A stretch of DNA of 4,120 nt, from the IMG/VR virus record IMGVR_UViG_2740892274_000011, one strand, 5' to 3'. This stretch comes from a virus. Its lineage: Duplodnaviria > Heunggongvirae > Uroviricota > Caudoviricetes. The translations under genes were made by a program, and so were the position numbers. How positions within the stretch are numbered: position 1 is the first letter of the stretch; the number at the start of each line of letters is the position of its first letter. The notes beneath the pieces are model-generated. The model ran no database searches and was not told the origin of the DNA. It was given only the letters and a program-made list of their open reading frames with translations. This document shows positions 1 through 4,120 of this stretch, in pieces.

Positions 1-64
1 GTCACTCTCGTCTGGGGAATATCTCCCCGGCAGCCTTCAGGGAAAAATATCATCAGATGGCTGC

Positions 65-238
65 TTAAAAAAAGAACAAATGGTAGTGTCCGCTATTGCC
101 AGTACACCTCAGGGTATAAGGGGTTATGGCCACCGGACTACCAAACGGCTGCCAGCCCTCTTTCAGTTTATGTGTCAGCTTTTCCGCAAGATCTGACGGC
201 GGCGCCGCCCTGACAACATCATAGTGTTTAAATGCCAT
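65..238 (-). CDS. small conserved prophage protein, 57 aa; resembles the DUF1737-type small proteins found just upstream of lysis genes in lambdoid prophages (family recalled from memory, unverified)
   Basis: ATG at 238-236 (rc) with GGTGGAAAG about 8 nt upstream; stop TAA at 67-65. Product MAFKHYDVVRAAPPSDLAEKLTHKLKEGWQPFGSPVAITPYTL... The tool ORF 65..253 starts 5 codons earlier at an ATG with no Shine-Dalgarno. Confidence 0.5.
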   Translation of the reverse strand: MAFKHYDVVRAAPPSDLAEKLTHKLKEGWQPFGSPVAITPYTLRCTGNSGHYHLFFF

Positions 239-250
239 GGTTCTTTCCAC

Positions 251-265
251 CATCTGAAAAATAAT
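251..265. repeat. direct repeat copy A (catctgaaaaataat), left boundary of the AT-rich insert
   Basis: Matches 847-863 at 15 positions with two 1-nt indels; sits at the junction between the ~50% GC phage backbone and the AT-rich segment. Confidence 0.4.
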
Positions 266-431
266 TCTTTAAAATACCTGACATGTAATACAGAAAAAAC
301 ACAAAACCATACCTTAAATAAAAACCTGATTATCAAGCAGATATGCATGGATAAACTACAAGACGAGATATAAACCACCCTGCATTTAAATAAACAATAA
401 ACAACATCAGAAAAATAATTCTGCTCTATGG

Positions 432-458
432 TTTACATTCAAAAATATCATTTATACT
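432..458 (+). promoter_or_regulatory. candidate sigma70 promoter for the 499-834 ORF
   Basis: -35 TTTACA (432-437) and -10 TATACT (453-458); spacer is 15 bp, which is shorter than optimal; A-rich upstream region. Confidence 0.3.
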
Positions 459-498
459 TTTCAGAACATCACCAGCAAGGCATAAACAAGGAAACTAA

Positions 499-834
499 AT
501 GAAGTGGATTGTGATTGATACAGTTATCCAGCCATCATGCGGAATATCTTTTTCAGTCATATGGAGTAAAATAAAATTAATAATCTGGTATCAATCGGAT
601 GCTTTCTTACCTCCTGAAAGTATATTTACACTGACTCACACAGGCATCATGCTCAATAACAAAGTGCTACCTGTAACCATTTACAACGTAGTACCATTCA
701 ATAAAACATTCTGGAATTCAATCAAAAATAGCCAGGAATGCCCTACAAATACAGATAACGTATTGAATGAATGCTTTAATAACCGTTGCACTCTGCAAAT
801 ATGTCCTTATGGACTAAAACAACAAAGTCCATAA
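499..834 (+). CDS. hypothetical protein, 111 aa, encoded opposite to the phage late operon inside an AT-rich insert
   Basis: ATG at 499 preceded by AAGGAAA (488-494) with a 6-nt spacer; candidate promoter upstream; 12-bp perfect hairpin overlaps the stop codon TAA at 832-834; no competing ORF on the other strand; AT-rich codon usage with 6 AUA codons. No recognisable family. Confidence 0.4.
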
Positions 835-837
835 GGA
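804..837 (+). terminator. perfect 12-bp stem-loop (tccttatggact / 10-nt loop / agtccataagga) overlapping the stop of the 499-834 ORF; possible weak or bidirectional terminator
   Basis: Perfect inverted repeat 804-815 / 826-837; followed on the + strand by GTTTACT, which is only a partial U-tract. Confidence 0.3.
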
Positions 838-846
838 GTTTACTCA

Positions 847-863
847 CATCTGACAAAATCAAT
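847..863. repeat. direct repeat copy B (catctgacaaaatcaat), right boundary of the AT-rich insert
   Basis: Near-identical to 251-265; overlaps the U-tract of the minus-strand terminator. Confidence 0.4.
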
Positions 864-890
864 ATAAACAGCCCCTCCGGAGAGGGGCTG
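851..890 (-). terminator. rho-independent terminator of the minus-strand cargo unit
   Basis: 9-bp GC-rich stem (869-877 cagcccctc / 882-890 gaggggctg, loop cgga), followed on the minus strand by UUUAUAUUGAUUUUGUC. Confidence 0.7.
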
Positions 891-965
891 GAGAGTGGCG
901 CTATGTGCCATTGCATGGTGCCGGGTGCCTCCCGGTGAATTCAGTACCAGCACCTGAATCCGCGA

Positions 966-1201
966 TTATCCCATATACCTACTCGCTGATTGCCCCTCCG
1001 CACAGGGGGATTCACCATGCCAGTTTCTTTTAACAAACTCCCCGCAAACCAGACAACAGTCAACCGCCTGAATTGTGAAGTATTTAAAAATTTCTCCCGC
1101 TAACTGATACCCGGCTAACAGTCTGGCGTTTTCTTTTTCAGCAACGGGAAAGCAACAACCACCACACCCGCCACCAGCACACCGTCAGCCAGCACTGACA
1201 T
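966..1201 (-). pseudogene. candidate ~79-aa membrane-anchored ORF interrupted by a frameshift in an A-run (or read by -1 frameshifting); the N-terminal 28-codon ORF (1115-1201) encodes MSVLADGVLVAGVVVVAFPLLKKKTPDC
   Basis: ATG at 1201-1199. A 72-codon open frame with no canonical start (1184-969, stop 968-966) lies in the -1 frame and overlaps the 28-codon ORF. Adding one A to the A5 run at 1133-1138 fuses them into MSVLADGVLVAGVVVVAFPLLKKENARLLAGYQLAGEIFKYFTIQAVDCCLVCGEFVKRNWHGESPCAEGQSASRYMG. Weak RBS. Confidence 0.25.
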
Positions 1202-1281: not shown

Positions 1282-1608
1282 CTACCCCAGATGAGTAATC
1301 CGAAGTTCATCCATACCACAGGTCCTGGCTATTCTGTTGTACTCCTGAACAAGAGCAAATAATTCTGAATTAGCAACCATGAACTCATCGCAAACCCTCT
1401 GTATAGCATCACTATTCAGAATAATAACGTCTCTTCCCGAAAGACGATCAGGAGTACAGAACAAAACTGTCAAACGGCTGAAGGCCTTTGCTCGTGCTGC
1501 ATTGACTATATCAATACGCTGCCTAAGGATGAAACACCCCGACGCCTCATCAATATTCACTCTACCCACACCATATGAATGATAAATATTTAATGCTGAA
1601 AAAACCAT
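1282..1608 (-). CDS. hypothetical protein, 108 aa from the ATG (117 aa from the upstream TTG at 1635); unrecognised cargo gene in the stx-equivalent position
   Basis: Open frame bounded by TAA just upstream of 1635 and TAG at 1284-1282; lies directly downstream of the phage tRNA genes on the late transcript; 6 of 11 Arg codons are AGA/AGG and 3 of 10 Ile codons are AUA; weak RBS at every candidate start. Confidence 0.45.
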   Translation of the reverse strand: MVFSALNIYHSYGVGRVNIDEASGCFILRQRIDIVNAARAKAFSRLTVLFCTPDRLSGRDVIILNSDAIQRVCDEFMVANSELFALVQEYNRIARTCGMDELRITHLG

Positions 1609-1745
1609 TAGACCGTATAACAAACACTCAATCAATACTTAACAGAACTTTTATTTTTGACAAACATAAAATATTTTCAACAATATCCTGAGCCAGGTAT
1701 ATTTCAGTATAAGGCTCTGCCGGAAGGAATCTGGAAGAATGAATA

Positions 1746-1922: not shown

Positions 1923-1998
1923 TGGTGGCCCTTGCTGGATTTGAACCAGCGACCTGGCGATTATGAGTCGCTCGCTCTCACCACTGAGCTAAAGGGCC
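1923..1998 (-). tRNA. tRNA-Ile2-like (anticodon CAU; ileX/ileY/ileZ type, formally also compatible with tRNA-Met)
   Basis: rc reads GGCCCTTTAGCTCAGTGGTGAGAGCGAGCGACTCATAATCGCCAGGTCGCTGGTTCAAATCCAGCAAGGGCCACCA; canonical cloverleaf; anticodon loop CTCATAA; closely resembles E. coli ileX as recalled. Confidence 0.9.
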
Positions 1999-3211: not shown

Positions 3212-3633
3212 NNNNNNNNNNNNNNNNNNNNNNNNNNNNNNNNNNNNNNNNNNNNNNNNNNNNNNNNNNNNNNNNNNNNNNNNNNNNNNNNNNNNNNNNN
3301 NNNNNNNNNNNNNNNNNNNNNNNNNNNNNNNNNNNNNNNNNNNNNNNNNNNNNNNNNNNNNNNNNNNNNNNNNNNNNNNNNNNNNNNNNNNNNNNNNNNN
3401 NNNNNNNNNNNNNNNNNNNNNNNNNNNNNNNNNNNNNNNNNNNNNNNNNNNNNNNNNNNNNNNNNNNNNNNNNNNNNNNNNNNNNNNNNNNNNNNNNNNN
3501 NNNNNNNNNNNNNNNNNNNNNNNNNNNNNNNNNNNNNNNNNNNNNNNNNNNNNNNNNNNNNNNNNNNNNNNNNNNNNNNNNNNNNNNNNNNNNNNNNNNN
3601 NNNNNNNNNNNNNNNNNNNNNNNNNNNNNNNNN
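3212..3633. other. assembly gap (422 N)
   Basis: Run of N in the sequence. Confidence 1.
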
Positions 3634-3733: not shown

Positions 3734-3868
3734 TGTCTGGTTGTTCAAAAGAAACGCTCCATCTTACTGCTGTCAGTTCGTTTATTACTGTATCTGCGCG
3801 GATTGCCGGGCTTCATGGGAGTGGAAAGCACCCGTGCACTTTCCTGGTCCACAGGCAGAAAATGTCCG

Positions 3869-4018
3869 TAGACTGGCCCCCTGAATCTCCAGACAACCAG
3901 TATCACTTAAATAAGTGATAGTCTTAATACTAGTTTTTAGACTAGTCATTGGAGTACAGATGATTGATGTCTTAGGGCCGGAGAAACGCAGACGGCGTAC
4001 CACACAGGAAAAGATCGC
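3869..4018 (+). mobile_element. IS2 left-end remnant (IRL, promoter/operator region and the first 20 codons of orfA), truncated at 4018/4019
   Basis: TAGACTGGCCCCCTGAATCTCCAGACAACCAgTATCACTTAAATAAGTGATAGTCTTAATACTAGTTTTTAGACTAGTCATTGGAGtACAGATGATTGATGTCTTAGGGCCGGAG... matches the IS2 left terminus as recalled, with 2 mismatches; similarity stops after AAGATCGC. Confidence 0.85.
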
Positions 4019-4076
4019 AATTGTGTCAACGCCACGATGTTTGACCGTTATTTGCCATTTTCATGCCCGCTAAATA
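3960..4076 (+). pseudogene. insC: truncated IS2 orfA (InsC); authentic for the first 20 codons ([20 protein letters not shown]), then reads into unrelated sequence
   Basis: Start ATG at 3960 as in IS2; diverges from IS2 orfA (…IAIVQQSF…) at codon 21; stop at 4074-4076. Confidence 0.6.
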
Positions 4077-4120
4077 CTTTCGTTACTGATGCTGTCCGCT
4101 TTCCACCATTTCATCATCAC

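What the first reader, a model, noticed from the sequence alone, without database searches (positions are those of the whole stretch)
251..866. AT-rich 581-bp insertion flanked by near-identical direct repeats
The motif catctga(c)aaaat(c)aat occurs at 251-265 and 847-863, matching at 15 positions with two 1-nt indels. The repeats bracket a segment of much lower GC than the flanking phage DNA. On the phage strand copy B is the terminator U-tract and copy A runs straight into the RBS and start of the small ORF at 65-238, so the ancestral arrangement was probably terminator followed directly by that gene, with the AT-rich module inserted between them. This looks like a secondary moron acquisition with target-site-like duplication or short-homology recombination.
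Basis: seen in the sequence. Interest (0 to 1): 0.55.

Follow-up and report, generated by a model that had tools for sequence, protein, structure and literature searches.

The report
Known iraL gene cassette in prophage
The AT-rich block is the already characterised iraL gene (a small protein that protects the stress sigma factor RpoS from degradation), sitting in a well-known cargo slot of a lambda-like prophage; the flanking "direct repeats" are weak and are not an insertion scar.

Summary
The sequence facts hold. A 32% GC block (window 240-863) lies between about 50% GC phage DNA, and an imperfect direct repeat sits at its two inner edges. The block is the iraL cassette, 618/624 identical to the CFT073 locus whose transcription start and RssB anti-adaptor function were shown experimentally (PMC4045071). 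Its right neighbour is the prophage sRNA gene STnc100 (860-1049, minus strand), which owns the hairpin at 869-890. Its left neighbour is a DUF1737/NanS-type gene, here truncated by an IS3-family element.

The proposed ancestral state, terminator abutting the small ORF, was not found in 5,426 complete E. coli genomes. Prophages without iraL carry a 170-230 bp spacer instead, which in one case holds the anti-sRNA AgvB. Stx2c phages carry a 70%-identical paralogous cassette in the same slot that lacks the repeat. An Stx2k phage has a different left junction altogether.

Both repeat copies lie inside the cassette. There are no terminal inverted repeats and no single-copy empty site. The moron reading is right. 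Target-site duplication is not supported; short-homology recombination was not tested.

Verdict: an ordinary, already known element exchanged as a module at the "convergent sRNA" moron slot. Low interest.

The parts
240..863 (+). iraL cassette: the AT-rich (32% GC) moron. It holds an upstream regulatory region, a promoter, the iraL coding sequence and a 3' hairpin.
   Evidence: Homology to iraL-less prophages breaks at 239/240 and about 862/863. The segment is 618/624 identical to the CFT073 iraL locus. At least 80% of the cassette query is present in 1,432 of 5,426 complete E. coli genomes, and listed full-length copies are 98-99.5% identical.
499..834 (+). iraL coding sequence, 111 aa: an IraM-family RssB anti-adaptor.
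   Evidence: NCBIfam NF007393 'anti-adapter protein IraM', 162 bits against a cut-off of 121. It is 61% identical to K-12 IraM and 74% identical to the Stx2c-phage paralog. PDB 8twd IraM matches at E=6e-31.
430..466 (+). iraL sigma-70 promoter and transcription start. The start is the A at 466. The -10 element TATACT is at 453-458. The -35 element is probably TTTACA at 432-437.
   Evidence: The 5'RACE-mapped mRNA 5' end ACATCACCAGCAAGGCATAAACAAGGAAACCA (PMC4045071) equals window 466-497 with one mismatch. My placement of the two hexamers is inferred from the sequence.
387..403 (-). PhoP-box-like direct repeat TGTTTAttgttTATTTA, at -79 to -63 relative to the iraL start.
   Evidence: It matches the (T/G)GTTTA-N5-(T/G)GTTTA pattern at 11 of 12 positions. 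It is conserved in the 70%-identical Stx2c and Stx2k cassettes. Function is inferred only.
804..837 (+). 12-bp perfect hairpin spanning the iraL stop codon; the likely 3' end or terminator of the iraL transcript.
   Evidence: Inverted repeat I5 is 100% complementary. The stem forms in the minimum-free-energy fold of 795-900, z = -6.2. The T-tract after it is weak, so termination is inferred.
243..265 (.). Repeat copy A, at the left inner edge of the cassette. On the minus strand it lies just upstream of the DUF1737 ribosome-binding site.
839..863 (.). Repeat copy B, at the right inner edge of the cassette. On the minus strand it lies just after the STnc100 terminator tail.
   Evidence: This stretch is absent, as a 28-nt gap, from the Stx2c paralogous cassette.
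402..422 (.). Third and best copy of the motif, 19/21 identical to 248-268, at -64 to -44 of the iraL promoter. It may act as an A-rich UP-like element.
   Evidence: It is partly conserved in the Stx2c cassette. Function is inferred.
860..1049 (-). STnc100-family prophage sRNA gene. Its intrinsic terminator is the hairpin at 869-890 plus the tail TTTATATT.
   Evidence: Rfam RF02076 scores 132 bits against a gathering score of 47, covering model positions 1-206 in full. The terminator scan also finds it. The same family sits at the same place in L001, L002, L003, L006, L008 and L016.
65..238 (-). Truncated DUF1737 gene (homologous to the N-terminal domain of NanS-p) that opens the lysis-proximal late genes. 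Its 3' end is replaced by IS sequence.
   Evidence: Pfam PF08410 matches at E=1e-15. Homologs start MAFKHYDV at the ATG equivalent to 238. Relative to L010 the window lacks about 526 bp at roughly 109-112.
1..111 (+). 3' end of an IS3-family element: the OrfB C-terminus and the terminal inverted repeat.
   Evidence: Window 1-112 is 100% identical to L010 974-1085. The L010 ORF matches NF033516, IS3 family transposase, at 336 bits.

Best explanation
The AT-rich block is the iraL moron of a lambdoid prophage.

Shown by others on a 99%-identical locus: iraL is transcribed from its own sigma-70-type promoter during ordinary growth of the lysogen. IraL binds the adaptor RssB, which stops RpoS being delivered to ClpXP, so RpoS is stabilised in log phase.

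Shown here: the cassette occupies a defined slot in the late region. On one side is the intrinsic terminator of the phage-strand sRNA gene STnc100. On the other is the start of the DUF1737/NanS-type gene that precedes the lysis genes. The cassette points against late transcription. In other prophages the same slot holds a 170-230 bp spacer with a convergent small unit (AgvB in one case), or a 70%-identical iraM-family paralog.

Inferred: the module moves between prophages by homologous recombination in the conserved flanks, STnc100 on the right and the DUF1737 N-terminal coding region on the left. That is allelic module replacement rather than insertion with duplication. I read the short imperfect repeat at the cassette edges as a third member of an A-rich motif family inside the iraL regulatory region, not as a junction scar.
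For: Identity of the cassette:
- NCBIfam IraM scores 162 bits.
- The cassette is 618/624 identical to CFT073 iraL.
- The published 5'RACE start sequence matches window 466-497 (PMC4045071).
- The CFT073 prophage at potB has the same gene order: Q, tRNAs, DUF3927, iraL on the opposite strand, DUF1737, holin.

The slot:
- STnc100 sits at 860-1049 on the minus strand and at the equivalent place in every comparison locus.
- Sharp breakpoints at 239/240 and about 862/863 are shared against four iraL-less loci. The flanks are 86-97% identical.
- AgvB lies in the spacer of L002, convergent with STnc100.
- The L008 spacer has a plus-strand terminator.
- This matches the convergent sRNA pair at the moron site described by Tree et al. 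2014 (PMC4104026).
- The paralogous cassette is in the same slot and orientation in Stx2c and Stx2a phages.

Against a junction scar:
- No contiguous empty-site allele appeared in 5,426 genomes.
- The repeat is absent from the paralogous cassette.
- The Stx2k phage has a different left junction.
- There are no terminal inverted repeats.
Against: - The end-versus-end repeat is nominally unusual: 0.1-6% of shuffles reach it, depending on the end window chosen. It also sits within a few bases of both independently defined breakpoints. Pure chance is therefore not a comfortable explanation.
- Neither the original donor nor the original recipient of the cassette was identified, so the founding event could have used short homology.
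- Flank-mediated recombination is inferred from mosaic patterns, not observed.
- The junction searches list only the top or an evenly spaced 60 rows. A rare empty-site allele with diverged flanks could have been missed.
Confidence: 0.85

Rival explanations
1. The cassette was inserted once between a terminator and the small ORF by illegitimate recombination at a short shared sequence. The motif was left at both junctions as a pseudo target-site duplication.
For: The repeat lies within 0-11 nt of both breakpoints. It is better than 94-99.9% of shuffles, depending on the end window used.
Against: - No single-copy empty site was found. Alleles without iraL carry an unrelated 170-230 bp spacer that lacks the motif.
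- Both copies lie inside the cassette-specific sequence.
- The 70%-identical paralog in the same slot has no copy B and only a degenerate copy A.
- A third and better copy lies internally at 402-422.
- Copy A is polymorphic at its first base in CFT073.
Confidence: 0.08
2. The repeat is coincidental similarity in A/T-rich, low-complexity regulatory DNA and has no meaning for either mechanism or function.
For: - With 60-nt ends, 116/2000 shuffles reach the observed score.
- The motif needs 2-3 gaps to align.
- It is not conserved in the paralogous cassette.
Against: With 30-nt ends, only 2/2000 shuffles reach the score. Only 0.46% of window pairs inside the real cassette do. There are three copies of the motif in 624 bp.
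Confidence: 0.55
3. The cassette is a transposon-like, miniature transposable element (MITE)-like or integron-like mobile unit that carries iraL.
For: Nothing beyond the direct repeat and the unusual base composition.
Against: - The cassette ends carry no terminal inverted repeats.
- ORF listing shows no transposase- or integrase-sized reading frame inside it.
- In the loci examined, full-length copies sit in one prophage slot; the exceptions seen were secondary deletions or rearrangements.
- K-12 iraM shares only the coding region with it.
Confidence: 0.02

Closest known systems
iraL of uropathogenic E. coli CFT073 (c1429; Hryckowian et al. 2014, mBio, PMC4045071)
   Same: The cassette is 99% identical, including promoter, transcription start, coding sequence and 3' hairpin. 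The surrounding prophage has the same gene order.
   Different: Six substitutions in 624 nt. One is in the 5' UTR just before the start codon and one is the base immediately 5' of the mapped start. Here the left neighbour, DUF1737, is truncated by an IS3-family element.
iraM (ycgW) of E. coli K-12, next to the e14 element
   Same: Same protein family, 61% amino-acid identity, with the same expected target, RssB. A PhoP-box-like repeat upstream fits the PhoPQ control known for iraM; that comparison rests on my background knowledge and was not tested here.
   Different: Homology covers only the coding region, window 497-818 at about 70% nucleotide identity. The flanks, genomic context and regulation differ: iraL is reported to be expressed in log phase.
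iraM-family cassette of Stx2c, Stx2a and Stx2k phages (for example phage 2851, phage 1717 and L006)
   Same: Same slot, between the STnc100 terminator and the nanS-p start, and same orientation. It is AT-rich (37% GC). The PhoP-like box and the promoter region are conserved.
   Different: About 70% nucleotide and 74% amino-acid identity. It lacks the 28 nt that carry copy B and the 3' arm of the hairpin, and it has no end repeat. In the Stx2k phage the left fifth of the cassette is missing and holin is the neighbour.
Convergent sRNA pair at the lambdoid 'moron insertion site' (AgvB/AsxR anti-sRNAs opposite an STnc100/EcOnc27-type sRNA; Tree et al. 2014, PMC4104026)
   Same: Same slot architecture: a cargo unit on the opposite strand, convergent with the STnc100-family gene, upstream of the conserved ORF that precedes lysis.
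   Different: Here the cargo is a protein-coding gene of 624 bp, not a 51-60 nt anti-sRNA. No AgvB or AsxR match was found in the window.
Phage morons in the sense of Juhala/Hendrix (2000)
   Same: Its own promoter, a hairpin at the 3' end, unusual base composition, and a location between elements that lie closer together in related phages.
   Different: The alternative allele is not an empty junction but another small unit, so this is replacement rather than simple addition.

Membership tests
IraM/IraL family of RssB anti-adaptors | Sequence membership in the curated family model above its cut-off | tested here: met
   NF007393 scores 162 bits against a cut-off of 121, covering residues 1-110. 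PDB 8twd IraM matches at E=6e-31.
IraM/IraL family of RssB anti-adaptors | Near-identity to the experimentally characterised iraL allele, including its mapped promoter and transcription start | tested here: met
   618/624 identical to CFT073. The 5'RACE sequence matches window 466-497 with one mismatch.
IraM/IraL family of RssB anti-adaptors | Binds RssB and stabilises RpoS | not testable with these tools
   Shown for the CFT073 allele in PMC4045071. For this allele it is inferred from near-identity.
Phage moron | Autonomous transcription unit (own promoter and terminator) inside a phage operon | tested here: met
   The promoter and transcription start come from the literature on a 99%-identical sequence. 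The 12-bp hairpin is at 804-837. Terminator activity was not measured.
Phage moron | Base composition differs from the surrounding phage DNA | tested here: met
   32% GC against about 45-50% in the flanking 200-nt windows.
Phage moron | Absent from the same position in related phages, whose flanking genes are otherwise adjacent | tested here: inconclusive
   The cassette is absent from L001, L002, L003, L008 and L016. In those loci the flanks are separated by a different 170-230 bp unit rather than being adjacent.
Insertion with target-site duplication (transposition-like) | One copy of the repeat at the empty site | tested here: not met
   No empty site with a single copy was found, and the spacer alleles lack the motif.
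Insertion with target-site duplication (transposition-like) | Terminal inverted repeats and/or a transposase | tested here: not met
   The cassette ends carry no inverted repeats. ORF listing shows no transposase-sized reading frame inside the cassette.
Insertion with target-site duplication (transposition-like) | Exact duplication of fixed length directly abutting the element ends | tested here: not met
   The repeat is gapped (15/17 or 20/25), and copy A starts 3-11 nt inside the left breakpoint.
STnc100 sRNA (Rfam RF02076), right flank | Covariance-model score above the gathering threshold over the full model | tested here: met
   132 bits against a gathering score of 47, model positions 1-206.

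The most novel reading that the evidence does not exclude
The three-copy A-rich motif CA(C/A)CATC(T/A)GA(C)AAAAT(C)AAT occurs at 243-265, 402-422 and 839-863. It could be a functional site that both regulates iraL and marks the module edges. It might bind a nucleoid or regulatory protein, or act as a short linker where lambdoid modules recombine. In that case the end repeat would be a real boundary signal of this cargo slot rather than chance.
Probability: 0.07. Interest if true: 0.35.

Novelty: already known. Interest (0 to 1): 0.12.

Why it matters
There is little here for discovery. iraL, its promoter, its function and its presence on a prophage-like island are published, and the cargo slot downstream of Q/PR' is a described moron and convergent-sRNA site.

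The modest added value is a precise map. The iraL cassette and its Stx-phage paralog occupy exactly the position that other prophages use for anti-sRNA genes, opposite STnc100. The alleles look exchangeable through the conserved flanks. This links two separately described kinds of prophage cargo that rewire host regulation: RpoS stabilisation and sRNA sponging.

It also explains why iraL is so widespread: 1,432 of 5,426 complete E. coli genomes carry at least 80% of the cassette. It may also explain why iraL is kept in decayed prophages.

Tried and rejected
- **Empty-site search.** I ran three composite queries against 5,426 complete E. coli genomes: flanks only at 366 nt, flanks only at 141 nt, and flanks with one hybrid motif copy at 168 nt. 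No contiguous junction allele appeared.
- **Transposon or MITE reading.** Rejected. There are no terminal inverted repeats and no transposase-sized ORF in the cassette.
- **Fur box.** iraL is raised in a fur mutant (PMC7157518), so I looked for a Fur box as an explanation of the A-rich motif. No site has 3 or fewer mismatches, and the best in-cassette matches are only 12/19, both inside the coding sequence. Rejected.
- **Rfam scan of the cassette.** I looked for a hidden sRNA such as AgvB or AsxR. Nothing above noise was found.
- **Rfam scan of the Stx2-phage spacer (L003).** No AsxR or AgvB hit. I claim only a plus-strand terminator-like hairpin for that spacer type, scanned in the homologous L008 spacer.
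- **Homology between the left part of the cassette and the spacer alleles.** None was found with word size 7.
- **Second promoter after copy A.** I read the sequence downstream of copy A on the plus strand by eye and saw no acceptable -10 element.
- **UTI89 look-alike.** UTI89 has the string CACATCTGAAAATAT about 50 nt from its second STnc100 copy. I treated this as a chance 9-mer and did not pursue it.
- **Genome-collection scan with IraL.** It returned only 6 loci and added no new context for the full cassette.

Full report
**Observation**

The two strings are present as described. 251-265 reads CATCTGAAAAATAAT and 847-863 reads CATCTGACAAAATCAAT. A local alignment extends the similarity to 243-265 versus 839-863: 20 matches in 25 columns, with three 1-nt gaps and two mismatches. 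The segment between them is AT-rich. Positions 240-866 are 32% GC, while 200-nt windows on either side are about 45-50%.

The motif is not confined to the ends. The best repeat in the region is ungapped, 19/21, between 248-268 and 402-422.

I defined the segment ends independently of the repeat, from homology breakpoints (see below). Dinucleotide-preserving shuffles then reach the observed end-versus-end score in 2/2000 cases with 30-nt ends, 15/2000 with 40-nt ends and 116/2000 with 60-nt ends. Within the real cassette, 0.46% of 30-nt window pairs score as high. So the repeat is real and somewhat unusual, but weak.

**What the AT-rich segment is**

The only sizeable ORF inside it is 499-834 on the plus strand, 111 aa. 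It matches NCBIfam NF007393 "anti-adapter protein IraM" at 162 bits against a cut-off of 121. It also matches the solved IraM chain 8twd at E=6e-31. It is 61% identical to K-12 IraM.

The whole 624-bp segment, 240-863, is 618/624 identical to the iraL locus (c1429) of uropathogenic E. coli CFT073. Hryckowian et al. 2014 (PMC4045071) showed the following for that locus:
- IraL binds RssB and stabilises RpoS in log phase.
- 5'RACE placed the mRNA 5' end at ACATCACCAGCAAGGCATAAACAAGGAAACCA.

That string is window 466-497 with one mismatch. It puts the transcription start at 466, with a TATACT -10 element at 453-458.

A 12-bp perfect hairpin at 804-837 spans the stop codon.

At least 80% of the cassette query is found in 1,432 of 5,426 complete E. 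coli genomes, and listed full-length copies are 98-99.5% identical. The cassette is also 97-98% identical in E. albertii and in several sequenced phages.

**What flanks it**

Right flank. Rfam places a full-length STnc100-family sRNA (RF02076) at 860-1049 on the minus strand, scoring 132 bits against a gathering score of 47. The GC-rich hairpin at 869-890 and its tail TTTATATT form that gene's intrinsic terminator. Copy B therefore begins essentially where the sRNA ends and overlaps its tail by only 3-4 nt.

Left flank. The minus-strand ORF is a DUF1737 domain (Pfam E=1e-15). It is homologous to the N-terminus of the NanS-p esterases of Stx phages. The homologous start codon is at 238.

In this window the gene is truncated. 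Window 1-112 is identical to the 3' end of an IS3-family element in E. coli ECMA0423, and about 526 bp of phage sequence are missing at roughly 109-112.

Further right on the minus strand lie DUF3927, two tRNA genes and a Q antiterminator. This is the late region of a lambdoid prophage. CFT073 has the same arrangement in its potB prophage.

**Is it an insertion between a terminator and the small ORF?**

I compared four iraL-less loci: phage JLK-2012, PPyecE_EH1910, Stx2 phage Lyz12581Vzw and E. coli 2017C-4109. Homology stops at 239/240, directly after the DUF1737 start codon. It resumes at about 862/863, just before the STnc100 terminator.

Those loci are not empty, however. They carry 170-230 bp of unrelated sequence:
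- In PPyecE_EH1910 the spacer contains the anti-sRNA AgvB on the plus strand (Rfam 96.5 bits), convergent with STnc100.
- In 2017C-4109 it contains a plus-strand intrinsic terminator facing the STnc100 terminator.
- The homologous hairpin and T-run can be read in the Lyz12581Vzw spacer.

This is the arrangement Tree et al. 2014 (PMC4104026) describe as convergent sRNA pairs between the moron coding sequence and a conserved phage ORF.

Three composite queries were designed to detect a contiguous junction, with or without one motif copy. Against 5,426 complete E. coli genomes, none gave a one-piece hit among the rows listed. Every full-coverage place listed was two pieces, spanning either about 365 bp (spacer allele) or about 764/992 bp (iraL allele). 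None of the spacers contains the motif.

**Other alleles of the slot**

Stx2c and Stx2a phages (2851, 1717 and others) carry an iraM-family paralog. It is 74% identical at the amino-acid level and about 70% at the nucleotide level across the whole cassette. It sits in the same slot and in the same orientation.

That cassette is also AT-rich: 37% GC against 51-59% in its flanks. It has no end repeat. The 28 nt that carry copy B and the 3' arm of the hairpin are a gap in the alignment. The copy A equivalent is degenerate. The end-versus-end score is at background.

In an Stx2k phage the paralog lies between stx2B and holin. Homology begins only at window-equivalent position 368, so the left fifth of the cassette is absent.

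That condition is met for the paralogous cassette.

In two E. coli genomes a prophage deletion runs from inside the cassette (about window 273) to a tail gene, and iraL is retained.

**Mechanism**

- Shown by others on a 99%-identical sequence: iraL is an autonomous unit expressed in the lysogen, and its product blocks RssB-dependent RpoS degradation.
- Shown here: it occupies the anti-sRNA position of the late-region cargo slot, convergent with STnc100. The slot has at least four alternative contents with shared, sharply defined flanks.
- Inferred: modules are swapped between prophages by homologous recombination in the conserved flanks, STnc100 and the DUF1737 N-terminus, which are 86-97% identical across alleles.
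- Inferred from established lambda biology: Q-antiterminated late transcription must read antisense through iraL to reach the lysis genes, and may interfere with iraL during lytic growth.

**The repeat**

Both copies lie inside cassette-specific sequence. A third and better copy lies at -64 to -44 of the iraL promoter. The cassette ends carry no inverted repeats, and ORF listing shows no transposase-sized reading frame inside the cassette.

I therefore read the repeat as a member of an A-rich motif family in regulatory DNA, or as chance. It is not a target-site duplication. A founding short-homology event cannot be excluded, because neither the donor nor the original recipient is known, but nothing supports it.

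**Comparison and novelty**

This is iraL, a known gene in a known type of site. The only increment is the explicit mapping of the iraL and iraM-paralog cassettes onto the STnc100/anti-sRNA slot, together with the evidence for replacement rather than insertion. Interest is low.

Noticed in passing
window 1-111: This is the 3' end of an IS3-family element: the OrfB C-terminus ...ISPAAFREKYHQMAA* plus the terminal repeat. It abuts the DUF1737 gene. Relative to E. coli ECMA0423 (L010), about 526 bp of phage DNA are missing, with 3-4 nt of overlap at the junction. The small ORF at 65-238 therefore ends in IS-derived codons.
   Followed up: partly
window 387-403 (minus strand): A PhoP-box-like direct repeat, TGTTTAttgttTATTTA, matches the pattern at 11 of 12 positions. 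It lies at -79 to -63 from the iraL transcription start. It is conserved in the 70%-identical Stx2c and Stx2k cassettes as TAAACAaagaaTAAAC(G/A). This suggests PhoPQ control of prophage-borne iraM-family genes.
   Followed up: partly
window 281-302: A 22-nt block, ACATGTAATACAGAAAAAACAC, is 20/22 conserved between the iraL and Stx2c-type cassettes, in an otherwise poorly conserved upstream region (alignment A1). Its function is unknown.
   Followed up: no
L016 (E. coli UTI89) 1506-1715 and 1993-2183: Two STnc100-family copies lie in tandem, about 280 bp apart, in one prophage late region. The 225-bp spacer allele follows, and iraL is absent.
   Followed up: partly
L015 and L017 (E. coli ST361 and strain 98223): A prophage deletion joins the inside of the iraL cassette (about window 273) to the minor tail protein L gene. 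The lysis and head genes are removed but iraL is kept.
   Followed up: partly
L019 (phage phiSTEC1575-Stx2k) 553-1185: The iraM-family module lies between stx2B and holin, with a truncated STnc100 and no nanS/DUF1737 gene. This is a third junction type for the module.
   Followed up: partly
window 3212-3633: A 422-nt run of N (masked sequence) lies inside a minus-strand ORF upstream of the Q antiterminator gene. Its content is unknown.
   Followed up: no
window 3868-4120: IS debris. An IS2 left end with the first 22 codons of its TnpA repressor (NF006928) breaks off at about 4023. It is followed by sequence matching an IS21-family istB region.
   Followed up: partly
window 1282-1635 (minus strand): A 117-aa ORF between the tRNA genes and DUF3927 has no Pfam or NCBIfam match. 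The DNA is conserved in phage mEp460 and in many E. coli prophages.
   Followed up: no
window 1923-1998: ARAGORN calls this tRNA as Met (CAT anticodon). RefSeq annotates the homologous prophage tRNA in E. coli 042 and CFT073 as tRNA-Ile. This would fit the lysidine-modified CAT anticodon of the ileX type, though that identification rests on my background knowledge.
   Followed up: no
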